Shown here: positions 1 through 11,467 of the stretch, one piece after another
Layout of the letters: the number at the start of each line of letters is the position of its first letter
Numbering within the stretch: position 1 is the stretch's first letter
Origin: a virus
Direction: 5' to 3' (one strand)
DNA length: 64,000 bases
IMG/VR virus record: IMGVR_UViG_3300023175_000009
The notes under the pieces: model-generated
The model's input: only the letters and a program-made list of their open reading frames with translations
Databases searched by the model: none
Told to the model about the DNA's origin: nothing
Translations under genes and position numbers: made by a program

Positions 1-1052
1 AATATTAATCTGCTAGCACAAGCAACAGAGTATTTACAATTAGAACAATCTTTTACTTTACTAGATTTATTTATACCTTTTGTTACTAATTGATTTTTTC
101 TTTCTAATATTTCTTCAAATGATAAACCCGTTACATCTAAATTTTTATTTTGTAAAAAGAACGCTTGTTCATGAAGCATTACATTTAAATGCGTTGTAGG
201 CCCATCTTTACCAGGAATAACAGTTAATCCTATAAAATTAATAGAATTACAATATAGATTAGCCATAGACATTGTTGCATTATAAGCATTATCCTCGTCT
301 ATAACTTTACCTAAAAATTCGTTCCAACTATCTAAATTTCTTTTTTGAATAAAAGTAGATGGTGCTCTAGAAAAAGCAGGATTCATTTCTACAATTGTTT
401 CGTATTCATTTAGAGATTTTTGTATAATTCTATTATATGTTTCTTTATCTATTTTTTTACCAACAACATTAGATGCTTGTAATGTCCAAGACCAATCCAT
501 TTTCTTTGGAGTTTCATTTTTAAAGAACTCTATTTTTTCCATTACATCATTAAAGTATTGATCGTCATCTAACATTTGATCTATTTTACTAATAGGCATA
601 ATAAATTCAATAATCATATCTCTTCTGAATTTATTTTCATCGTCTAATATAGAAAATATTTCTTTTACTTTTTCCATTGTTGCTAAATCAAATTTAGCAG
701 GAGCAGCAATACGAGCACCTACATGCTCTCTCATTATTTCTTGTATTGTTTGATTATTTAGAATTTCTTTTGTGTTATTTGCTGTAAAAAAATCTGTAGG
801 TCCTATTACAAATTCTCTAAGATTTAATCCTGTTCTTTTTACGCCATCAGCTAATTCTTTTGCTCTATCTAATATTTGCTGATTCATGCTTTTATCAATA
901 TTTTTATTAACAAAACATCCTAAGCAGCCATGATCGCATCCAGATAAAACTTCTGTTTGAATAAGCACATCAAATTTCTGAGCATTCGAAGGTGGCAGGC
1001 TTTCAGGACCAGAATATCTCATTTGTTTACAATATGATTTTTGCATACTCAT
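1..1052 (-). CDS. Divergent radical SAM protein with C-terminal SPASM/twitch-like Cys cluster (truncated by the window edge, >=350 aa)
   Basis: Not in the ORF track. Manual translation from ATG at 1052 is open to the edge: MSMQKSYCKQMRYSGPESLPPSNAQKFDVLIQTEVLSG-CDHGCLGC-FVNK... (CxxxCxxC at 915-938) and ...KVKD-CSNCKYSVAC-ASRLI (CxxC-x5-C at 18-47). Starts 2 nt after the upstream stop. Confidence 0.85.
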   Translation of the reverse strand, partial: MSMQKSYCKQMRYSGPESLPPSNAQKFDVLIQTEVLSGCDHGCLGCFVNKNIDKSMNQQILDRAKELADGVKRTGLNLREFVIGPTDFFTANNTKEILNNQTIQEIMREHVGARIAAPAKFDLATMEKVKEIFSILDDENKFRRDMIIEFIMPISKIDQMLDDDQYFNDVMEKIEFFKNETPKKMDWSWTLQASNVVGKKIDKETYNRIIQKSLNEYETIVEMNPAFSRAPSTFIQKRNLDSWNEFLGKVIDEDNAYNATMSMANLYCNSINFIGLTVIPGKDGPTTHLNVMLHEQAFFLQNKNLDVTGLSFEEILERKNQLVTKGINKSSKVKDCSNCKYSVACASRLI

Positions 1053-1054
1053 TT

Positions 1055-1438
1055 TTATCTTCTCCCTCTAGAGCCGTGACAACTTTGGTGACAACTATTG
1101 TGACATAGATAAGCATTAACTGACCTATTACTTATTCTACCTTCAATTACATCTACGGTTCTTCTTACTAAATCTTCTAATGTATCAACAATATCCTGAG
1201 CATACATTAAATTACCACTGGTAATACCACCATCTACATAATTATTATATATACTGTTTGATGCGTTTACATACTCAAATCTAGAATATGCATATGTTGT
1301 TCCAGTACTAGACCACTGACCTTGTGTAGCTCGTCTATATACATTAAGTGTCCATCGCATGGTTTTATCAAACGTTCTTAACTGTGCTCCTCCATACGAC
1401 TGCACCCAAGAATTAATATCACCTCTATCTGCAGTCAT
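1055..1438 (-). CDS. 127-aa protein with C-terminal (CHxS)3 Cys/His repeat; putative radical SAM substrate (paralog 2)
   Basis: Ends AYLCHNSCHQSCHGSRGRR, aligns over nearly its full length with 1441..1821, and abuts the rSAM gene. Confidence 0.8.
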   Translation of the reverse strand: MTADRGDINSWVQSYGGAQLRTFDKTMRWTLNVYRRATQGQWSSTGTTYAYSRFEYVNASNSIYNNYVDGGITSGNLMYAQDIVDTLEDLVRRTVDVIEGRISNRSVNAYLCHNSCHQSCHGSRGRR

Positions 1439-1440
1439 AG

Positions 1441-1821
1441 TTATCTTCTCCCTCTAGAGCCGTGGCAACTTTGGTGACAACTATTGTGACACAAATAGGC
1501 ATTAACTGTCCTATTACTTATTCTACCTTCTATTAAATCAACAGTTCTTCTTACAAGACTTGTTATAGAATCAGTAACATCAGCAGATCTAATAATACCG
1601 CCTGTATAAATTCCGCTATCTAAATAATTATTATATAAGGAATAAGCGGCATTTACATACTCAAATCTATGATAAGAATAGTGCGTGCCAGTGCTAGACC
1701 ACTGACCTTGTGTAGCTCGTCTATAAGTATTAACACTTAATAGTATGGTTTTATCAAACGTTCTTAATTGACTTCCTGCTTGACTTTGCATACTAGAATT
1801 TAATTGTGAATATGTTGGCAT
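1441..1821 (-). CDS. 126-aa protein with C-terminal (CHxS)3 Cys/His repeat; putative radical SAM substrate (paralog 1)
   Basis: Same C-terminal tail as 1055..1438. The ATG directly abuts the stop of the 3194-aa fibre gene. Confidence 0.8.
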   Translation of the reverse strand: MPTYSQLNSSMQSQAGSQLRTFDKTILLSVNTYRRATQGQWSSTGTHYSYHRFEYVNAAYSLYNNYLDSGIYTGGIIRSADVTDSITSLVRRTVDLIEGRISNRTVNAYLCHNSCHQSCHGSRGRR

Positions 1822-4800
1822 TTATACTTTAACCTCAACTTCTCCATTACCATCGCAATCACCTACTGCAACGCCTATTATCTCAAAAGTATTTATATCT
1901 TTTGTGCCATAATCAACAGCTTTTCCTCTACCGTCTTTATCTGCAATGATCCATTGTCCTTTTTTAGCAGTACCATTAATTAATACTGGAATACGTCCTT
2001 TAAGAGCAATAAATGGATTCATCTTAGCTTTCTTAGATTTACTATCTGGTTTAATTCCCATATCGTTCATTTGTACCGCAGGATTAGTAGAAACTGCACC
2101 GGCTAATGGCATACCAGGTTGGAAAAGAGTAACCTCTGAATCACCATCTAAGTTAATACCAAGTACAGTACCTGGCTCATAGATATCATCTGCTCTATAG
2201 CGCTCCGCCAAGTCAGCCCATCTTGCTGATGTTGCTGTACCAACATATAAACCGTTATTATCGATATATGATCTGTTAGAACCATTACGACGGAACTGAA
2301 CGATAAGTGATGAGTTACCACCAGATTCTAAATAGAAACGGTTTGAGTGGTATTCAAGTTTACCAGCGTCGTTACCAATGTTACCAGTCCAAGATTCGTT
2401 ACTAGATTCGATAAAGCGAAGAGTTGGTGAGTAACCATCTTGGTGGCGAGTTTGTAGCTGCCATTGACCTGCCGCATTTAAGTCACCAGACCAAGTTCTA
2501 TCACCATACATCCAACGACACATTGTACCATTATAAGCAGCTCTTAACTGTAAGCTCATTGAAGAACTGTTGTTGTTACCAGTTATAGCATAGTATTGGC
2601 CTTGATATGAATAAGCGTGTACACCAGTGCCTTGGTTGTAGATACCTTCACGAGAGTTATCATTACGGAACCAGTTACGGGCGTAGATTTCGGTAGCTCT
2701 TATATAACTATTAAAATTAGATCCAGATGCTGGATTTACATAGTAACCAGTATTATCTGAATCATAGAAGATAGGTGAACGCATACTTGACGAAGCATAA
2801 GCTACACCACCAACATGTAATCTATAAGAATCAGGTTCACCACCACTTAATGATAAGTTACCATTGTGTTTAAGTTGGAAGTATTCGGAACCGTGCGATG
2901 TCCAATCTTGTGGGAATGGAGAATTATTACCCCAGCGAATAACAAATGAACCAACATAACGATCATCTGCACCCAATGCCCAAACTTGGTCTTGCCCCGC
3001 AGAGTTGGTAGCGTCTGAGAACTCAATACACGGATCACCTGCATAACCAAACATGCGAATACGAGCATAACCATTACTAGCAGATTGCATCGTTAGCCAA
3101 GTGTCATTATTATCTCCATCTATTTGAATATAACCACGAAGACGAGCTGCTCTACCACTATCTGCTGGATTAATATAATATGTTGTATTATTTGAATCGT
3201 AGAAGATTGGTGCTCTTAATGAAGAACCAGCTTGTAGGCTGTTATTAACATAAACGTTATTACCACCCAATGGATCAGTCGCGTTGTTAACCGACATGAC
3301 CTGACCAGCCATGTTGTAATCATTATAGAAACGAATACCATTATAGTCAGCATTTGCACCAAGTTTAATACCAGTATGGAACGCAATACGTAGATCAGGA
3401 TAACGATAAGACCAACCACCACCTTCACGGAAGATAGCGTAAGCTTCAGATCTACCAGAATCCCAGTATAAACCAAATCTATCGTCTGAAGAAACACTAC
3501 CGTCGTTTGTAAAGTAGTTTGCACGAACTTGGTTCATTCGAGATGTACCGTTAGGATCTACATAATAATTGGTATCATTAGAATCATAGAAGATCGGTGA
3601 ACGTATATCTGAACTATGCCAGAGGTAATCAGTATTTAGTCTACCATATCGAGTACTACCTCGGTACCATTCCATAATTTCTGTATTATCAGAAGAGTAT
3701 TGGTCTGCATCAACAACAGTACGTGCTTGCAATCTAATATAATCAGAAGAACCAGTACCGTCATTTTCAGCACCAAGTACTAAAGCACCGTTTTCACCGG
3801 AATTATCATAGTCTGGATCATATGAAATATATGCAAAGTCAGATGGAGCATTTACACCAGATCTAAAGTAAATAGTAATAGGCTGATCATTTCCTGAATG
3901 GAATTCAGCAGCGGTATTATTAAGCATATCACGTAATTTACCGCCTAAATGCGATGGAGAGATATACGAAGAAGATCCTGCGGAATCTGCGTGGCGACCT
4001 TTGAAGTATAATTTACCTCGCAAATCAATATAATTAATTATAGAAGTACCACCAAAATCACCATAATAATTAGTATCGTTTCGATCATAGTATTGTTGAG
4101 CATAATTAGATCCAAGAGTTAATACGTTACCATCACCACGAATAATCATATTCCATTGACCACCGAGACCACCATCACGGAATGAAATATCTTCGCCACC
4201 CGATGTTGCAATAATTAGGTGAGCATCATTTGATTCAGTAGCTTGAATATAACCACGAATATTACCACCCGAAGTTTGATACTCAGTATATCCACCAGAA
4301 GCATGTCTTGTAATATTCACTATTGAAGTACTAGCTGGATCCATATAATAACTAGTATTATTTTCATCATAATATCTTGAAGCATATAAGTCATTACCAC
4401 TACCATCTGGATTAGAATTATATACAGCGATATTACTATAAGAAGAATATGCAGTGCTTGATCCCCAAGATTGTTGCCACAATCTCATTTGGCGACCAGA
4501 TTTCTTAAACATTAATAAGTTATCTGAACCACCAGAAGCATCTGTGTAAGATCTTAAGTGTAAGTAATCAGCGTATGGCGAAGCGTTGTCGTTGTTCCAA
4601 GAAGTGAAACCAAACTTCAATTCACCAGCAGTGTCTTCACTTGGAGCAATAATGCGATTATCTCTTCTTCTTAGAGATCCTGAGCTTCCTGTAATACCAG
4701 GCGCAGTAATATCTTCAAGAACTGTTAGTCCGCGGAATCTTGATGTACTATTTGGATTCGCGTAGAAACCGGTATCGTTAGAATCATAGAAGATTGGAGC

Positions 4801-7800
4801 ACGGTAAGAACCGCGGGCTTCCATGTATCCTGACGCTGTTCTTTCTTCCCAAGTACCGTTATAATACAAATATACTCTAGCATCACGCTCGATGTAAACA
4901 GCCCATTCATTGCTTGGAGTTTTTAAACCAAAATGATTATCATCGTCAAAGTAAATGCGACCACAATCAGTACTATCTGAGTCGCGGAAAATGATTTGAC
5001 CATGATCACTGTTATTAGAACGAATATTTAATTCTTCACCATTAGTATCGTAAATATCCCAACCGTTTGGAGTTTGGAATCTATTAGCTTGCATAACATT
5101 GGTAATAGAAGTACCAGCAAAATTACCATAATAAGATGTATCATCTTGATCATAGAAAAGAGGAGAACGCATAGAGTTAGGTGCATAACCATATCCTCCA
5201 CGAGTACCTAATTGTTCTACGTTATCTGCATAAAGTTGTACAAAATGCGCATTACCATTACCTGGACCATTAGTATTGAATCGAGCGATATCAAAGGCAC
5301 CAGCAGAACCACCTCGGATTCTAAGACCTTGATAAGTATTCCAATACATACCATCGAAGCCACCAGAACCTGCAGCACCACGAGTAGTAGGACCACCATA
5401 ATAATTGTTCCAAAGAACGTGGTTTGTATCTGTTCCAGAGTTAAACCAAATGGCATTTTCGTTATAATCTCTTTGTAATTTAAGACCACCAGTTCTCAGA
5501 TATAAATTAGCAAAGATGGATGAACCTGCTGGATCTGCATAGTAGTTTCCATCATTGGAATCATAGAAACGCTGGGCTCGCATATAACGACCAGCCCAAA
5601 CATCACCAACAGAATCAACACGCATGCGCATTGTACCATTGCCAGTTCCAGAAGTAAACTGTAGGTTACCACCTGAGTTTGTACTTAGGTTATCTGGTGA
5701 TTCGTAAATCTTCCAATCATTACCGCCTTTCCAACGAATACCTTCGCTTGGACCTGGATCATTAAACGTTAAGTTGTTTAAGTTATCAATAGTACCATTG
5801 TTCCAATTCCAAGTACCCTGAACGTTACCGCCTGAAGCAGGATCCATATATCTTGCTGTATTATCACGATCTCTAAAGTTGCTTGCATCAACTGTATTTA
5901 ACTTAGATGTTGAAGCAGGATCTAAATAGAAAGTATTGTCATCTGAATCATAATAACGAGGTGCATACACATTAGATGTAGTACGTATATTAGCTCTTAA
6001 TTGAGATCGTTTAAGAATTGGTGGACCAAATTCTCTAATAGCTCCACCAGCACTATAGTTCATTAATAAAATTAAACGAACATATTTAACTGCTCCACCA
6101 TCAGATCCATTATATGGAGTATGAGATGTTGGAAGTGTATGATGCCCACTAAATGTTCTCCAATTAGTGTCTGTTAAATTATTACCACCTACAACAAAAT
6201 ATGTAATACCATCATTTGTTGCAATTGGCTTTTTATCTTTATCATATCGGCGAACACCCATGTATAATAATCCGCCTGATCCTGAAATAAATCTGGCAGA
6301 AACTTCACCGTAAATTTCTTCACCTGGTTCTACAGCGATAAAGTCTGAATCAAATGTTCTATATCCAGATGTTCTTAATGCATAACTAGCATTAAATGGA
6401 CCATTATTATTTTTGGTATATTCTGATGTAGTTGTTGTAGGAGGATTTTCAATACCTGTTAATGTTTGAATTACTCGTTTTTCCCAGTAATCGTTACCAT
6501 CAAATAATGTATCGTCAGCAATACCAGTACCATATTGCTTTAATAGATTTAAGTTTTCATTACCGCCAGATATTGCAAAACTTCCAGCACTAACTTCTCT
6601 CTTAAACCAAGCATCTCCGTTGTCTAAATCAATAGCTGCTTTAGGATCGCCTGCTCCAACAAATATAACTTCGTTTGGATTAGCACTACCAAAATGACTT
6701 AATGATGATGTTGTTGTTGCCCAGAACATACCCCAGTTATTTGCTGGAGTCCAAACCCAATGGTTTGCATCTTGCGGTACAAGTAATTTATTTGTTGTTA
6801 CATCTCCTGTAGCAAATCCATCTCGAACAATTTGTCCATTAACTTTCAGCGCTGTAGCAGTATTTCCTGCAGCAAAATTTGCATAGTAATTACTGTTATC
6901 GCTATCATAGAAAATAGGTGAACGCATTGAAGTAGGTGCATAACCATATCCATTTTCAGCACTTAATTGATGTACACCATTAGAATATAATCTAGTAAAG
7001 TTATTATCTTGTGCGTATAGTACCCATTCGTTACGAGTATCATTATAGAGACCCATATTAGTACTACCATCTGAAATAAATGCCCAGTCATTGCTAATAG
7101 CATAACCAGCATATCCATTAGTAGAACCTTCTACTTTAATAGTACCGTAATCTCCATTTGGTGAATCGATATATCTTGAAGCAGTATCCATTTCAAATCT
7201 ACTACCTCTAACATTATTCATTACTGAAGTGCTAGCAGGATCTGTGTAGAATGAAGTATTATTACTATCATAAAATATTGGTGCTCTAAAACTATCGCTT
7301 GCTAATACATAATTGTAATATGCAATTAAAGCATCTTTTGAAGTATATGGACTAGCACTTTTCTTAAGACGTAAACGAATTGATTCGTTAGCATCATAGT
7401 CATTTCCAGCTTCAAGAATTAATGCACCTGTACCTGTGCCTGCCGGTGATTCACCATAAATTTTCCATCCATCAGTGTCACCCATTTCTTGGCCAATGTA
7501 ATAAGTAGGAAGATTAGCATTACCAAAATGACTAACACCAACCGTATTTTGCGGCATTGTAATACGAGCCATAACAGATGTACCAGCAAAATCACCATAG
7601 AAATTATTATCGTTGAAATCGTAATAAGTTGGGAAGTATGCATAATCATTTCCACTATAAGCACTAATACCGCCACCATCAAATTTAGTAAACTTTTGGA
7701 AATAAAATTCTGGTCTATCTGTTTGGAACTGAACGAAACTTGCGTTCATAGAACCAATATCTAAAAATCCTGTAGGAGTTTGTAATCTAAATGCATTTGA

Positions 7801-10800
7801 TGTATTAGGATCAATATAGAAATTATTATTTGATATATCACCAAATCTATCCGAATAAACATTTACAGCAAAATCTGCTGAATCATTATCAATGTTTAAT
7901 CTTTGAGTATTGCCAGTCCAAACTCTAAATGTATCATTTGCAGCAAAACCAAAATAGTTATCTGTATCTCCGTTGTGCTGAATATAATCATCAATACCAA
8001 TTCTATTAAGAACAGAAGTACCAGCTGGATCTAAATAATAATTCGCATCTGAATAATCGAGATATCTACCTGCTTGAATATCACCAGATGTATAAATTGT
8101 TTTATTGTTACTTACTCTTAAATAAGTAGAGTCGGTCATATACCAACCACCACCTTCACCAAATGTAAGTTCATTGTGTTTTATAAATGAGCTAGTACCA
8201 TTTCCAAATACAACTGCATCATCACTACCAGTTAATTGAACAGATCCATTAACATGTAATTTATTAGGATTAATACTACCAATTATAGGAGTGGCATCTG
8301 AATTAGCATATGTAATAGATTGGTCACCAACAATAACATTCATGCTCGAATCTACTGTTAGACCAAATGTTGCACCTGTATCAATAATACTCCATGCACC
8401 TGTTGATTCTATAACATTATAGAAATTATTAAGACCATCACCACGCTCACTTAAGATTTCTGTACCATCTGCATAGTAAGATGTAAATTTATTGTTTGTT
8501 GATAAAGGATTATTTCCAATATCAATTCTATTTAAGTGACTTAATGCATAATTACCATTACCACCAGATATTGCAAAAAGAGGATTACTTGTTGCTGCAT
8601 GAGCGCCATAAGGTGATATTGTTATACCACCATTACCAGTAGTATCATCCCATCTATCAACATCTGTTAAATTACCAAGTGCAATTCTACCACTAAGTGC
8701 TAATGCTGTAACTGTACTAGATGCACCAACATTCAAATAATTAGTTGTTCCTGTTGTTGCATAATAATAAGGTGCTCTTACTGGAACAGATGCTGCAACA
8801 TTAGAGCTAGTAATTGTTAATCTAGTTGCTGAGTCTGCATCAAATGCTATTTGATTATCAGTAAAAGAAAGTTTTGTATCAGTATCTCCATTATGGAATA
8901 AATCGCTATCAATACCAATAGAGCCTAAAGTTGAAGCACTACCTGGATCTAAGAAATAAGAATTATTGTCAGAATCATAATAACGAGGAGCATAAACATT
9001 TACAGCAAAATCTGCTGAATCAGTATCTATATTAAATCTTTGTACTCCACCTGTGAAAATTCTGAATGTGTCATCAGCTGGAAAACCAATATAAGTATCT
9101 TCGTCACCAATATGACGAATGTAATCCGCAATATCAATTCTACTAAGAATAGAAGTTCCTGCAGGATCTGCATAGTAAGTATTATCATTACTATCGTAAT
9201 AACGAGGAGCATAAACGTTTACACTAAAGTCTGCTGAGTCTAAATCAATACTTAATTTACTTGTATTATTTACAAATACTCTAAATCTTTGATTAGTATC
9301 AAATCCAAAGTATGTTGTAAGATCTCCTCTATGTCTAATATAATCATCAATATCAACGGTATTCATTTGAGAATTACCAGCCGCGTCTACAAAATATTGA
9401 GTATTATCTGAATCGTAATAGATAGGTGAACGCATTGCACCTGTTGCAAGAGCATAAGTACTTGTAATTCTGAATTCGTCATTTCCGCCAGCACTAAATC
9501 CAATAGTATCAGCACCATAACGATACATACCAGTATTATTATCTAATTCAAATGAGTATGTTGGTAAAGCTAAAGTACCAGCTGCTGCTGTAATTCTACC
9601 AGCAGTATTAATTGCGGTGCCTGTATTACTAAAGTCTCCAAAGTATGCTAAATTATCTGCATCATAATAAATGCTTGCATATGATGAAGATACTGAAATA
9701 GTTCCACCAAGGAAGTCATTATTTCCAATATTTACATCAGCATTAAAATTAAATCTATTTAAACCAAATCCACCAGATACTATTTCAAAGTTTACTGAAT
9801 GATCTGTCGCATTTGTTTCATCTTGATAATAACGAATATATCCTTGACCGTCTGTTGATTGGATTTGGAATCTTTCTGTTGCACTAGAACCAATACTAAT
9901 TTGAGCATTAGCTGTACCAGTATAAACATTTAAATTATAAAGCTGTGAATTACCATCCGGATCAACTAAGTAGTTAGTATCTGCAGAAGAAATAAATGAT
10001 GTACCTTTAATGTCATTAAAAGCATATACAAAATTATTATCGGCTTTTAATCTACTTGAACCACCAGTTTGAATATCTATTGTATCGCCTAAGAACTGGA
10101 TGCCTGTGTCTGAATCTCCATTATGCTTAATGTATTCATCTATACCAATTTGATTTAATACTGAATTTCCATCAGGATCTAACAAATAAGTATTATCTTC
10201 AACATCTACAAAACTTTTACCATAAACGTTTTCTTCTACAATCCAGTCATCATTTGTATCTAATCTTGCGGCATAATTAAATGTAGTATCTAAAAAACCA
10301 ATTTCACCAGCAGAAGAATAAATTGTTCTATTATTACCAGCGCCATCCATATAAATGTAAGCACCACCTGTACCAGTACCAACAGTTAATGTACCTTGTA
10401 CAGCATGATTTCCAGAAGTTACAGCACCAGTACTAGTTGCTCTTAATTTTGGACTTCCTCCATAAAGTACCTCACCATAAGATACTCCAGACTGATTCCA
10501 AAATGATGCAATACCAGCGTCTGCAAATGTAGAACCTTGCTTACCAGAAAGATATACGGTACCATTACCTACACCAGAAGCACCACCGGCCTCTATAGGA
10601 AACGAATTTGCAAAAGATGTAATTGTACCAGTTAAACTAGAAGAATCACCTATTAATAAACCTTGTGAGACACCACCAATTTGCCACTTATCAGAAGCTT
10701 CTATCCAAGTAAATGATGCGTTATCTAAAGTACCTCTTTCAACTTCGATACCAGCATTTTCTGATGGAGTGCTTCCTGTATAATTACTATTAAGAGTAAT

Positions 10801-11406
10801 AATATTATCAGCAAGTAAAATCTCTTCTGTATTAACAGTTGTTGTATTACCAGTTACTGTAAGATCACCATTAATAACAAGACTACCATTCATAGTATCG
10901 TCTTGATCTGATCTTAAGAATTGTAATGAATCTAAACCATCAAGTAAGTCAGCGTCTAATCCTGAGTTAGCACCATCATTACCGGCATTCCAAAATACAT
11001 TGCCGTTATAAGTTGGTTCGCGGAAAAATGTAATACCAGAAGAATCAAATGATATGTCAACACTATTATTATATCCAATTTCGATACCATCAATATCGTT
11101 ATTAAATTTAATAAAATTATCTTCATTACTTAATTTATAATCATTACCACCAGTATAAGTAATTGTTAAACCATCTGCGTGGCTTGAAGATGATGTGAAA
11201 TTAGCAATTGTAGCATTAACTCCACTAGTATTATTAATACTAATGCTTGCTGTATTAGATGTGGAATAGTTAACTTCAAATGTGCCGGTATATTTAGAAT
11301 CACCGACTACTGTAAGTATTTCACTTCCGTAGGAAGATGTACCTATGACGACACTCTCTAAAGACAAGAGTCCGTTCTTTACTCTGAACTTGTTATTGTT
11401 TGCCAT
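1822..11406 (-). CDS. Giant long tail fibre protein (3194 aa) with C-terminal intramolecular-chaperone-like domain
   Basis: About 20 repeats of (R/I)(Y/F)YDSxxxxYYxDPxxxS, a GLDADLLDG fibre motif, G/S/N/T-rich composition, and a C-terminal WADLAERY..YEPGTVL...IALKGRIPV (peptidase G2-like chaperone pattern). Confidence 0.85.
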   Translation of the reverse strand: MANNNKFRVKNGLLSLESVVIGTSSYGSEILTVVGDSKYTGTFEVNYSTSNTASISINNTSGVNATIANFTSSSSHADGLTITYTGGNDYKLSNEDNFIKFNNDIDGIEIGYNNSVDISFDSSGITFFREPTYNGNVFWNAGNDGANSGLDADLLDGLDSLQFLRSDQDDTMNGSLVINGDLTVTGNTTTVNTEEILLADNIITLNSNYTGSTPSENAGIEVERGTLDNASFTWIEASDKWQIGGVSQGLLIGDSSSLTGTITSFANSFPIEAGGASGVGNGTVYLSGKQGSTFADAGIASFWNQSGVSYGEVLYGGSPKLRATSTGAVTSGNHAVQGTLTVGTGTGGAYIYMDGAGNNRTIYSSAGEIGFLDTTFNYAARLDTNDDWIVEENVYGKSFVDVEDNTYLLDPDGNSVLNQIGIDEYIKHNGDSDTGIQFLGDTIDIQTGGSSRLKADNNFVYAFNDIKGTSFISSADTNYLVDPDGNSQLYNLNVYTGTANAQISIGSSATERFQIQSTDGQGYIRYYQDETNATDHSVNFEIVSGGFGLNRFNFNADVNIGNNDFLGGTISVSSSYASIYYDADNLAYFGDFSNTGTAINTAGRITAAAGTLALPTYSFELDNNTGMYRYGADTIGFSAGGNDEFRITSTYALATGAMRSPIYYDSDNTQYFVDAAGNSQMNTVDIDDYIRHRGDLTTYFGFDTNQRFRVFVNNTSKLSIDLDSADFSVNVYAPRYYDSNDNTYYADPAGTSILSRIDIADYIRHIGDEDTYIGFPADDTFRIFTGGVQRFNIDTDSADFAVNVYAPRYYDSDNNSYFLDPGSASTLGSIGIDSDLFHNGDTDTKLSFTDNQIAFDADSATRLTITSSNVAASVPVRAPYYYATTGTTNYLNVGASSTVTALALSGRIALGNLTDVDRWDDTTGNGGITISPYGAHAATSNPLFAISGGNGNYALSHLNRIDIGNNPLSTNNKFTSYYADGTEILSERGDGLNNFYNVIESTGAWSIIDTGATFGLTVDSSMNVIVGDQSITYANSDATPIIGSINPNKLHVNGSVQLTGSDDAVVFGNGTSSFIKHNELTFGEGGGWYMTDSTYLRVSNNKTIYTSGDIQAGRYLDYSDANYYLDPAGTSVLNRIGIDDYIQHNGDTDNYFGFAANDTFRVWTGNTQRLNIDNDSADFAVNVYSDRFGDISNNNFYIDPNTSNAFRLQTPTGFLDIGSMNASFVQFQTDRPEFYFQKFTKFDGGGISAYSGNDYAYFPTYYDFNDNNFYGDFAGTSVMARITMPQNTVGVSHFGNANLPTYYIGQEMGDTDGWKIYGESPAGTGTGALILEAGNDYDANESIRLRLKKSASPYTSKDALIAYYNYVLASDSFRAPIFYDSNNTSFYTDPASTSVMNNVRGSRFEMDTASRYIDSPNGDYGTIKVEGSTNGYAGYAISNDWAFISDGSTNMGLYNDTRNEWVLYAQDNNFTRLYSNGVHQLSAENGYGYAPTSMRSPIFYDSDNSNYYANFAAGNTATALKVNGQIVRDGFATGDVTTNKLLVPQDANHWVWTPANNWGMFWATTTSSLSHFGSANPNEVIFVGAGDPKAAIDLDNGDAWFKREVSAGSFAISGGNENLNLLKQYGTGIADDTLFDGNDYWEKRVIQTLTGIENPPTTTTSEYTKNNNGPFNASYALRTSGYRTFDSDFIAVEPGEEIYGEVSARFISGSGGLLYMGVRRYDKDKKPIATNDGITYFVVGGNNLTDTNWRTFSGHHTLPTSHTPYNGSDGGAVKYVRLILLMNYSAGGAIREFGPPILKRSQLRANIRTTSNVYAPRYYDSDDNTFYLDPASTSKLNTVDASNFRDRDNTARYMDPASGGNVQGTWNWNNGTIDNLNNLTFNDPGPSEGIRWKGGNDWKIYESPDNLSTNSGGNLQFTSGTGNGTMRMRVDSVGDVWAGRYMRAQRFYDSNDGNYYADPAGSSIFANLYLRTGGLKLQRDYNENAIWFNSGTDTNHVLWNNYYGGPTTRGAAGSGGFDGMYWNTYQGLRIRGGSAGAFDIARFNTNGPGNGNAHFVQLYADNVEQLGTRGGYGYAPNSMRSPLFYDQDDTSYYGNFAGTSITNVMQANRFQTPNGWDIYDTNGEELNIRSNNSDHGQIIFRDSDSTDCGRIYFDDDNHFGLKTPSNEWAVYIERDARVYLYYNGTWEERTASGYMEARGSYRAPIFYDSNDTGFYANPNSTSRFRGLTVLEDITAPGITGSSGSLRRRDNRIIAPSEDTAGELKFGFTSWNNDNASPYADYLHLRSYTDASGGSDNLLMFKKSGRQMRLWQQSWGSSTAYSSYSNIAVYNSNPDGSGNDLYASRYYDENNTSYYMDPASTSIVNITRHASGGYTEYQTSGGNIRGYIQATESNDAHLIIATSGGEDISFRDGGLGGQWNMIIRGDGNVLTLGSNYAQQYYDRNDTNYYGDFGGTSIINYIDLRGKLYFKGRHADSAGSSSYISPSHLGGKLRDMLNNTAAEFHSGNDQPITIYFRSGVNAPSDFAYISYDPDYDNSGENGALVLGAENDGTGSSDYIRLQARTVVDADQYSSDNTEIMEWYRGSTRYGRLNTDYLWHSSDIRSPIFYDSNDTNYYVDPNGTSRMNQVRANYFTNDGSVSSDDRFGLYWDSGRSEAYAIFREGGGWSYRYPDLRIAFHTGIKLGANADYNGIRFYNDYNMAGQVMSVNNATDPLGGNNVYVNNSLQAGSSLRAPIFYDSNNTTYYINPADSGRAARLRGYIQIDGDNNDTWLTMQSASNGYARIRMFGYAGDPCIEFSDATNSAGQDQVWALGADDRYVGSFVIRWGNNSPFPQDWTSHGSEYFQLKHNGNLSLSGGEPDSYRLHVGGVAYASSSMRSPIFYDSDNTGYYVNPASGSNFNSYIRATEIYARNWFRNDNSREGIYNQGTGVHAYSYQGQYYAITGNNNSSSMSLQLRAAYNGTMCRWMYGDRTWSGDLNAAGQWQLQTRHQDGYSPTLRFIESSNESWTGNIGNDAGKLEYHSNRFYLESGGNSSLIVQFRRNGSNRSYIDNNGLYVGTATSARWADLAERYRADDIYEPGTVLGINLDGDSEVTLFQPGMPLAGAVSTNPAVQMNDMGIKPDSKSKKAKMNPFIALKGRIPVLINGTAKKGQWIIADKDGRGKAVDYGTKDINTFEIIGVAVGDCDGNGEVEVKV

Positions 11407-11459: not shown

Positions 11460-11467
11460 TATTTATA
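11460..11467 (-). promoter_or_regulatory. T4-type late promoter TATAAATA
   Basis: Exact consensus in the intergenic gap, 53 nt upstream of the 3194-aa gene; a GGGGAGAG RBS-like sequence follows. Confidence 0.8.

What the first reader, a model, noticed from the sequence alone, without database searches (positions are those of the whole stretch)
1..1821. Candidate phage-encoded RiPP-like system: two (CHxS)3 proteins plus a radical SAM/SPASM-like enzyme, fused to the tail fibre operon
Seen: the 3194-aa fibre gene, paralog 1, paralog 2 and an unannotated ORF follow each other with gaps of 0, 2 and 2 nt, downstream of a late promoter (11460). Both paralogs end in CHNS-CHQS-CHGS-RGRR. The unannotated ORF has CxxxCxxC (915-938) and CxxC-x5-C (18-47). 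Established: rSAM/SPASM enzymes next to small Cys- or His-repeat genes are peptide maturases, e.g. sacti/ranthipeptide thioether formers, CXXX-repeat systems, His-Xaa-Ser (Hxs) systems and triceptide cyclophane synthases. The tail satisfies both the CxxxCxxxC and the H-x-S pattern three times. Inference: the phage post-translationally cross-links these proteins late in infection, making either a modified fibre-tip/virion component or a released peptide. More maturation genes probably lie left of the window.
Basis: partly seen in the sequence, partly recalled or inferred. Interest (0 to 1): 0.92.

Follow-up and report, generated by a model that had tools for sequence, protein, structure and literature searches.

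The report
Radical-SAM kit maturing fibre-associated virion protein
Behind its giant tail-fibre gene, a T4-like phage carries two small proteins with an almost invariant Cys-His repeat tail and nine radical-SAM enzymes; this undescribed kit also occurs in jumbo phages and beside pilin-fibre genes of predatory bacteria, and most likely chemically finishes a protein of the host-binding apparatus rather than making a free peptide.

Summary
Observation confirmed; interpretation partly supported. Near-identical contigs extend the window leftwards: the ORF is a 391-aa radical-SAM-fold protein, the first of nine, with Fe(II) oxygenases and three conserved unknown genes. The two paralogs belong to a family of over 400 proteins with a freely varying folded body and a 16-residue tail, (Cys-His-x-Ser/Asn/Ala)x3-Arg-x-Arg-Arg. 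112 of 117 viral loci have rSAM genes in the held flank. The Atu_ph07 homolog gp170 is in the published virion proteome and peaks in the top gel band; its rSAM neighbours are absent from that list. This favours a virion protein over a released peptide. Correction: the enzyme next to the paralogs belongs to a non-canonical, dispensable clade (no aromatic residue in the Cys motif, no GGE, no AuxI cysteines); the likely maturases are four canonical rSAM/SPASM enzymes 7-13 kb left of the window. In Bdellovibrionota the kit is chromosomal, beside a pilin-fused S74 fibre gene. No curated family cut-off is met, and I found no paper describing the kit. The chemistry is unshown; His-to-C-beta cyclophanes and Cys thioethers fit best. 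This scan has reported the same kit many times on other DNA.

The parts
1822..11406 (-). 3194-aa fibre protein; its last 130 aa (window about 1822-2214) look like a Peptidase_G2-type intramolecular chaperone that is probably cleaved off
   Evidence: (atlas 0.94 to PF11962 clusters); homologous domain ends Atu_ph07 gp176
1441..1821 (-). Paralog 1 (126 aa): folded helix-hairpin-helix body plus invariant 16-residue Cys-His tail (1444-1491); putative substrate and virion protein
   Evidence: (pLDDT 85, tail 52-59); homolog gp170 in virion
1055..1438 (-). Paralog 2 (127 aa), 70% identical to paralog 1, same tail (1058-1105)
1..1052 (-). rS1: first 350 of 391 aa of a non-canonical radical-SAM-fold protein (Cys motif with Gly in place of the aromatic residue at 915-938; GPTD in place of GGE; four C-terminal Cys of AuxII type starting at 18-47); accessory clade with five copies in this phage
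11460..11467 (-). T4-type late-promoter consensus in the 68-nt gap before the fibre gene; by position only
   Evidence: 8-mer not above chance
1..1 (.). Left of the window (not in window coordinates): X (365 aa), Y (262 aa), rS2-rS5 on the same strand (L018 11942-18118); then a convergent arm cupin, rS6, rS7, rS8, Z (135 aa), rS9, 233-aa ORF (L024 6153-12129); then a 2OG-Fe(II) oxygenase (L024 5523-6083)

Best explanation
The two small proteins are structural proteins of the phage's host-binding apparatus, most likely added to the end of the trimeric fibre after its C-terminal chaperone is cut off (the position gp38 holds in T2-like phages). Before assembly, in the cytoplasm, a dedicated kit modifies their invariant C-terminal tail. 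The core enzymes are the four canonical rSAM/SPASM proteins rS6-rS9 with a His-x-Asp...His cupin oxygenase and the unknown proteins X, Y and Z; the five non-canonical copies rS1-rS5, including the window ORF, are accessory (scaffolds, Fe-S carriers or enzymes with altered chemistry). The likeliest chemistry is His-to-C-beta cross-links on each His-x-Ser/Asn/Ala triplet and/or Cys thioethers, giving a rigid, basic C-terminal module that anchors the protein or binds the cell surface while the body varies. Shown: gene content, linkage, folds, motif constraint, one homolog in virions. Inferred: that the tail is modified, by which enzyme, the chemistry, and the place on the virion.
For: Linkage: 17 of 17 close loci, 112 of 117 viral and 37 of 39 genuine genome loci have rSAM genes in the held flank, the exceptions mostly with short flanks; every cultured phage lineage with an rS7 homolog that I checked has the tailed protein. 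Constraint: Cys, His, Arg nearly invariant while bodies fall into 169 clusters at 50% identity; the residue two after His is Ser, Asn or Ala and never Gly, Thr, Val or Ile in 507 positions, against 107 Gly and 39 Thr one after His, which fits the aromatic-to-C-beta rule of triceptides (PMC11499958). Enzymes: rS6, rS7 and rS9 keep full or near-full SPASM Cys sets, and the best NCBIfam hits of rS6 and rS7 are peptide and protein maturases. Virion: Atu_ph07 gp170 has 8 unique peptides, 35% coverage, 31.9 kDa yet peaks in band 1, whereas other 29-35 kDa proteins mostly peak in bands 7-8; rSAM genes gp165, gp168, gp171 are not listed (PMC6102473 Table S5; numbering and mass checked). Fibre link: 47 of 63 viral loci have a chaperone-ended fibre gene within 4 kb upstream; gp176 (66 kDa) peaks with 50-56 kDa proteins, as expected after chaperone loss (52.5 kDa). 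In 5 of 5 Bdellovibrionota chromosomes a pilin-S74 fibre gene lies within about 17 kb of the tailed gene. Precedent for rSAM maturation of a His-x-Ser repeat protein: HXS (PMC13128918).
Against: No experiment shows any modification. Four to nine rSAM enzymes and several oxygenases are many for 16 residues, so some may act elsewhere. Virion evidence is one distant homolog (shared tail plus about 30% identity over 83 aa) in a PEG-purified preparation that also held some non-structural proteins. The band-1 position could be a stable or disulfide-linked oligomer, since the listed loading buffer names no reductant. The fibre tip does not co-vary with the tailed protein more than the chaperone domain does (rho 0.39 against 0.54). 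In the phiKZ-like phages RSL2 and DT01 the upstream genes are of another kind, without this chaperone domain.
Confidence: 0.6

Rival explanations
1. The tail is a ligation signal: the kit cross-links it to another chain (the next subunit or the fibre), so the protein forms a covalent polymer such as a whisker or a fibre extension, rather than an intramolecularly cyclised cap.
For: gp170 peaks in the top band and smears through bands 1-9 after boiling in SDS; Atu_ph07 has hairy whiskers; the model is elongated with a low-confidence free tail; invariant tail on any body.
Against: Known rSAM/SPASM cross-links are mostly within one chain (own knowledge); disulfides or SDS-stable trimers would give the same gel pattern; one other 36-kDa protein (gp321) also peaks in band 1.
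Confidence: 0.14
2. The tail is a metal or cofactor site (three Cys-His pairs). The enzymes build or load a metallocofactor on it, or work on other substrates (DNA bases, glycans, host metabolites), and the peptide backbone is not cross-linked.
For: Cys-His pairs are common metal ligands (own knowledge); enzyme number exceeds the apparent sites; glycosyltransferase-like and nucleotidyltransferase genes lie next to the cassette here; earlier papers read phage rSAM clusters as metabolic (PMC2853527; PMC5332604).
Against: The strict exclusion of Gly and beta-branched residues two after His and the invariant terminal Arg residues are not what a simple ligand array needs; closest enzyme families are peptide maturases; the kit follows the tailed gene into bacterial chromosomes beside fibre genes.
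Confidence: 0.15
3. Classic RiPP: the body is a large leader and the modified 16-mer is cut off and released as a bioactive peptide.
For: Core-like C-terminal motif; rSAM/SPASM enzymes nearest to DarE, DynA, PapB; X, Y, Z are unassigned and might hide a peptidase.
Against: RiPP leaders are the conserved part and cores vary (own knowledge); here it is the reverse. The body is folded and is found in virions. No peptidase or transporter family among the cassette genes scanned.
Confidence: 0.08
4. The window ORF rS1 is itself the dedicated maturase of the two paralogs.
For: Directly downstream in most close relatives; rSAM/SPASM-like fold, best matches ChlB Z 13.5, anSME 13.4, CteB 12.4; about 80% conserved among relatives.
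Against: 92 of 99 clade members have Gly where rS6-rS9 have an aromatic residue, and most have GPTD for GGE; only 7 conserved Cys; clade not found in the cassette regions of Atu_ph07, Phosso and two Bdellovibrionota genomes, which keep the same tail.
Confidence: 0.03

Closest known systems
HXS antiphage system (HxsA matured by rSAM enzymes HxsB/HxsC with HxsD; PMC13128918)
   Same: A full-size protein with His-x-Ser repeats rich in basic residues, matured in the cytoplasm by more than one rSAM enzyme plus a small partner, then working at the cell envelope.
   Different: Here the repeats carry an invariant Cys and end the protein; no peptidoglycan-binding domain was detected; enzymes score 25-30 bits against cut-offs of 268-370; the system is phage-encoded and virion-associated, with 4-9 rSAMs and oxygenases.
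Triceptides with His-specific cyclophane synthases (HaaB, HtkB, YhhB, ChlB; PMC11499958; PDB 9GM3)
   Same: Aromatic-x-C-beta triplets; the residue spectrum two after His fits; ChlB is the top fold match of rS1.
   Different: Substrate is a folded structural protein, not a short leader-core peptide; no cyclophane synthase family cut-off is met; Cys before every His is not part of triceptide motifs.
Ranthipeptide/sactipeptide and protein-modifying rSAM/SPASM enzymes (CteB, PapB, anSME; QhpD from own knowledge)
   Same: Cys every fourth residue; rS9 has seven auxiliary Cys, a count seen in thioether-forming enzymes (own knowledge); fold matches 5WGG and 4K36.
   Different: No Cys-x3-Asp motif; far below PapB and anSME cut-offs; no N-terminal recognition element in these compact enzymes.
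T2/S16-type gp37-gp38 fibre tip (PMC7917993)
   Same: Small gene directly after a fibre whose C-terminal chaperone is autocleaved; fibres share only the last few residues before the cut.
   Different: No sequence or fold likeness to gp38 found; gp38 needs no radical enzymes; binding to the tip is not shown here.
Unexplained rSAM clusters in large phages (Campylobacter CP220/CPt10, PMC2853527; marine T4-like EVG with 12 rSAM genes, PMC5332604)
   Same: Many rSAM genes in a T4-like phage.
   Different: Those papers read them as metabolic and name no substrate; Campylobacter phages gave no hit to rS7, rS1 or the tailed protein, so theirs are probably other enzymes.

Membership tests
Radical SAM superfamily (window ORF rS1) | Three-Cys CxxxCxxC motif near the N-terminus | tested here: met
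   C39, C43, C46 invariant
Radical SAM superfamily (window ORF rS1) | Partial TIM barrel | tested here: met
   pTM 0.83; ChlB Z 13.5, rmsd 5.8, 317 aligned; anSME Z 13.4, rmsd 4.8, 308 aligned; Foldseek E 4e-6 to CteB
Radical SAM superfamily (window ORF rS1) | Aromatic residue before the third Cys and GGE motif for SAM binding | tested here: not met
   Gly in 92 of 99, GPTD-type in most; rS6-rS9 are canonical
Radical SAM superfamily (window ORF rS1) | PF04055 above cut-off | tested here: not met
   no PF04055 hit for rS1; rS7 37.7 and rS8 32.5 pass 29.5, rS6 27.2 falls just short
Radical SAM superfamily (window ORF rS1) | Reductive SAM cleavage | not testable with these tools
   needs reconstituted enzyme
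SPASM domain | Two auxiliary cluster Cys sets | tested here: not met
   rS1 clade keeps only C336, C339, C345, C362 (assignment to AuxII from own knowledge of anSME); rS6 and rS7 keep eight, rS9 seven; rS6 reaches TIGR04085 at 27.1 against 27
HXS system | His-x-Ser repeats in the substrate | tested here: met
   three per tail; Ser in about 80% of positions, Asn or Ala otherwise
HXS system | HxsB and HxsC equivalogs (TIGR03978, TIGR03977) | tested here: not met
   rS6 29.5 against 370; rS7 24.5 against 267.9; none for rS1-rS5
HXS system | HxsA family match with peptidoglycan-binding domain; HxsD partner | tested here: not met
   no such NCBIfam or Pfam hit for the paralogs, five distant homologs, X, Y or Z
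CXXX-repeat rSAM systems (TIGR04114-04119, from own knowledge) | Cys every fourth residue | tested here: met
   three Cys at i, i+4, i+8; described targets have many more (own knowledge)
CXXX-repeat rSAM systems (TIGR04114-04119, from own knowledge) | Match to target and maturase models | tested here: not met
   no such hit listed for substrates or enzymes in NCBIfam (only the best 25 hits shown for rS6 and rS7)
Triceptides | Aromatic-x-X3 motif with a C-beta at X3 | tested here: met
   0 Gly in 507 positions
Triceptides | Cyclophane synthase family membership | tested here: not met
   rS6: AmcB 36 against 425, FxsB 34 against 370, YhhB 33 against 445
Triceptides | Aromatic-to-C-beta cross-link | not testable with these tools
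   needs MS/MS and NMR
Ranthipeptides/sactipeptides | Maturase family match (PapB and kin) | tested here: not met
   rS6 44 against 340
RiPP in the strict sense | Leader removed by a peptidase, product exported | tested here: inconclusive
   no peptidase or transporter recognised, but X, Y, Z are unassigned
gp38-type fibre-tip adhesin | Gene directly after a chaperone-ended fibre | tested here: met
   0 nt gap here; 47 of 63 loci within 4 kb
gp38-type fibre-tip adhesin | Sequence homology to gp38 | tested here: not met
   no Pfam, PHROG or PDB sequence hit to gp38
gp38-type fibre-tip adhesin | Fold likeness to gp38 and binding to the fibre tip | tested here: inconclusive
   best Z 5.8 to unrelated helical proteins; complex job gave no verdict

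The most novel reading that the evidence does not exclude
Phages of several unrelated lineages and predatory Bdellovibrionota share one enzyme kit that turns the C-terminus of a fibre- or pilus-tip protein into a polycyclic, natural-product-like module, used either as a covalent anchor for a hypervariable adhesin or as a ligand for a conserved Gram-negative surface target: a post-translationally built host-recognition device with no described counterpart, in which the non-canonical rS1-rS5 clade adds new radical chemistry.
Probability: 0.3. Interest if true: 0.95.

Novelty: new variant of a known kind. Interest (0 to 1): 0.8.

Why it matters
I know of no virion protein matured by radical-SAM enzymes, and found none in the library searched. 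If true, it explains the long-noted rSAM clusters of many large phages, adds a chemical layer to phage host recognition, and links phage fibres to the prey-contact apparatus of predatory bacteria. It is directly testable in cultured phages (Atu_ph07, Phosso, RSL2, FLC6, DT01), and offers four new canonical maturase families plus one non-canonical rSAM clade acting on a tag that appears portable across very different protein bodies.

Tried and rejected
No genome G000 is held; I used near-identical contigs instead. Complex prediction of three fibre tips with paralog 1 gave no verdict; it is not used as evidence either way. Fold searches with the paralog model found only common helical arrangements; atlas no usable hit; PDB sequence searches for the paralogs, X, Y and the rS1 clade empty or spurious. 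Co-variation of fibre tip and tailed protein was no better than background. Homology of the Bdellovibrionota 200-aa protein to the phage chaperone domain was not established (no hmmsearch hit; hhalign probability 11%). PADLOC gave only generic viperin-type rSAM hits. Promoter scans were at chance level. Haem c attachment (CxxxCH) considered and set aside: virions assemble in the cytoplasm and no cytochrome maturation genes are linked (own knowledge). Eight of 47 genome pattern matches had no tailed ORF and were treated as chance or truncated. Paper searches found no description of the kit; a jumbo-phage review does not mention radical SAM enzymes.

Full report
Observation. The four genes, their gaps of 0, 2 and 2 nt, the shared 16-residue tail and both Cys motifs are as described. 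The paralogs are 70% identical, and their last 22 codons differ at four nucleotides with no amino-acid change. The late-promoter 8-mer sits in the gap before the fibre gene, but the 8-mer is not enriched in this DNA. The rest of the window is a T4-like baseplate, tail and fibre region.

What lies to the left. Contigs of about 200 kb that differ from the window at 9-16 of 11,821 nt carry the same genes. The cut ORF (rS1) is 391 aa. It is followed by X (365 aa), Y (262 aa) and four paralogs rS2-rS5 (18-27% identical to each other), and then by a convergent arm: cupin, rS6, rS7, rS8, Z (135 aa), rS9 and a 233-aa ORF; a 2OG-Fe(II) oxygenase follows, and T4 gp13 lies further on. The phage thus has nine CxxxCxxC proteins. 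All 17 IMG/VR relatives show the two paralogs and an rSAM cluster.

The tailed family. A word search gave 121 close homologs, a profile search 156 clusters, and a DNA pattern for the tail at least 119 viral stretches and 47 genome contigs. Among 414 distinct proteins (median 177 aa, up to 747) the Cys, His and Arg positions are nearly fixed (partly by my selection pattern; among the 148 profile hits, which were not so selected, 135 have the full pattern), while bodies split into 169 clusters at 50% identity. The unselected positions are informative: two after His is Ser 404, Asn 67, Ala 25 and never Gly, Thr, Val or Ile in 507 positions, whereas one after His has 107 Gly and 39 Thr. Triceptide synthases link His C2 to the C-beta of the residue two further on (PMC11499958), so this spectrum is what such a link would need; that is inference. 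The body of paralog 1 folds with pLDDT 85 as helix, hairpin, helix, with a low-confidence tail, and has no clear structural relative.

Linkage. 112 of 117 viral loci with an intact tailed ORF have rSAM genes in the held flank, as do 37 of 39 genuine genome loci; most exceptions have short flanks. The usual order is fibre, cupin, rS6, tailed gene, Y, X, rS9, rS7, rS8, optional rS1-type genes, Z, oxygenases. Cultured carriers are the phiKZ-like RSL2/RSF1/FLC group and DT01 and the T4-like giants Atu_ph07 and Phosso.

Which enzymes. The rS1 model (pTM 0.83) matches rSAM/SPASM peptide and protein maturases best: ChlB Z 13.5, anSME 13.4, CteB 12.4, SuiB 12.3. But the clade is non-canonical: 92 of 99 members have Gly before the third Cys, most have GPTD where others have GGE, and only seven Cys are conserved. 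rS6-rS9 have the aromatic residue and GGE or GGD; rS6 and rS7 keep eight auxiliary Cys, rS9 seven, and rS8 four plus conserved His. rS6-rS9, cupin, Y and Z are present in every full cassette examined, whereas the rS1 clade was not found in the Atu_ph07, Phosso, G002 and G005 regions. The cupin keeps a His-x-Asp...His triad, as in Fe(II)/2OG oxygenases (own knowledge). No enzyme reaches a curated maturase cut-off; the best are DarE (50 against 650) and DynA (42 against 450).

Virion evidence. In the Atu_ph07 particle proteome, gp170, the tailed homolog, has 8 unique peptides and 35% coverage; gp165, gp168 and gp171 (rSAM) are not listed (PMC6102473 Table S5). Gene numbers and the mass (31,894 Da) match. 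It peaks in band 1 with 76-139 kDa proteins, whereas most 29-35 kDa proteins peak in bands 7-8, so it survives boiling in SDS as a large species; the listed buffer names no reductant, so disulfides are not excluded. The upstream fibre gp176 (66 kDa) peaks with 50-56 kDa proteins, in line with loss of its C-terminal chaperone (52.5 kDa left).

Fibre link. The window fibre ends in a domain like the Peptidase_G2 autoproteolytic chaperone, and 47 of 63 viral loci with enough flank have such a gene within 4 kb upstream. These fibres range from collagen-like 300-aa proteins to 3,000-aa beta-rich ones and share little but about ten residues before the predicted cut. In S16-type phages chaperone loss exposes the docking site for gp38, and only the last few residues are shared (PMC7917993). 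This is an analogy; co-variation gave no extra support and the phiKZ-like carriers have other upstream genes.

Predatory bacteria. 27 of the 39 genuine genome loci are Bdellovibrionota. In five examined over 40 kb the kit lies among housekeeping genes, with no phage genes recognised, and each has nearby a gene with a pilin-type N-terminus and a Peptidase_S74 chaperone (N_methyl above cut-off in three of five), a single-copy 200-aa gene, and a small protein with a twin-Arg-like N-terminus. In an even sample of 151 genomes the 200-aa gene occurs in 8 and rS7 in 7, with 6 shared and 5 of these within 10 kb (P about 2e-7 without the centre genome, ignoring kinship). The kit thus stays with chaperone-folded fibre genes in a cellular setting too, which supports a role in a surface-contact apparatus.

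Mechanism. Most likely (0.6) the core enzymes rebuild the invariant tail in the cytoplasm, by His-to-C-beta cyclophanes and/or Cys thioethers with possible hydroxylation, and the protein then joins the fibre end. Rivals: inter-chain ligation into a polymer (0.14), a metal or cofactor site or other substrates (0.15), a released peptide (0.08), rS1 as the sole maturase (0.03). No step of the chemistry is shown.

Comparison. It works like the HXS system, where HxsB and HxsC mature a His-x-Ser repeat protein with a +8 Da change (PMC13128918), and its motif fits triceptide logic, but it fails the family tests for HXS, triceptides, CXXX-repeat systems and ranthipeptides. Earlier papers noted rSAM-rich phages without a substrate. 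I found no paper on this kit in the open library, which lacks most subscription journals.

Earlier notes of this scan. The same kit was reported many times on other DNA; I had reached the virion reading before looking. Those notes gave me the HXS paper, and one used the gp38-position wording. One note says part of the same claim fell in a later check, without saying which part. They are not independent evidence.

Verdict. A real, widespread and apparently undescribed system: a new variant of rSAM protein maturation, applied to a virion and probably pilus-associated protein. Interest 0.8.

Noticed in passing
window 1890-1897 (minus): A second late-promoter consensus 69-76 nt before the paralog 1 start, inside the fibre gene; could raise expression of the paralogs, but the 8-mer is at chance level.
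   Followed up: partly
L024 6153-12129: The core enzyme arm (cupin, rS6-rS9, Z) is on the opposite strand, converges on the fibre operon with overlapping ends, and has no late-promoter consensus on its strand; it may be expressed earlier than its substrate.
   Followed up: partly
L024 8626-10020: rS8 here carries an extra C-terminal 2OG-Fe(II)/cupin-like domain (464 aa against about 305 aa in relatives).
   Followed up: partly
L027 17622-18581 (RSL2 ORF071): The annotated start misses the upstream CxxxCxxC motif; the true gene is longer and is an rS1-clade member annotated as hypothetical.
   Followed up: yes
L024 1618-5444: Next to the cassette: nucleotidyltransferase-cupin, glycosyltransferase-like and two DUF7936 genes; the same block borders the cassette in several other phages (L035, L037, L043, L071, L111).
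   Followed up: no
L197-L206: Bdellovibrionota genes joining a type IV pilin N-terminus to a phage-type S74 chaperone fibre, with a single-copy 200-aa partner and a small twin-Arg protein; a possible phage-derived pilus tip.
   Followed up: partly
L178 3907-4266; L179, L186, L187: Variants with more than three Cys-His repeats (four in some Bdellovibrionota, many in a Dysosmobacter contig), suggesting processive chemistry.
   Followed up: no
L203 16153-17880; L075, L077, L125, L132, L196: A 575-aa protein recurs inside many cassettes (about 50% identical between a Pseudobdellovibrio and phages); not identified.
   Followed up: no
L007-L011: Collagen-like 355-aa fibres share the last 60 residues before the chaperone with the 3,000-aa beta-rich fibres of other phages of this group.
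   Followed up: partly
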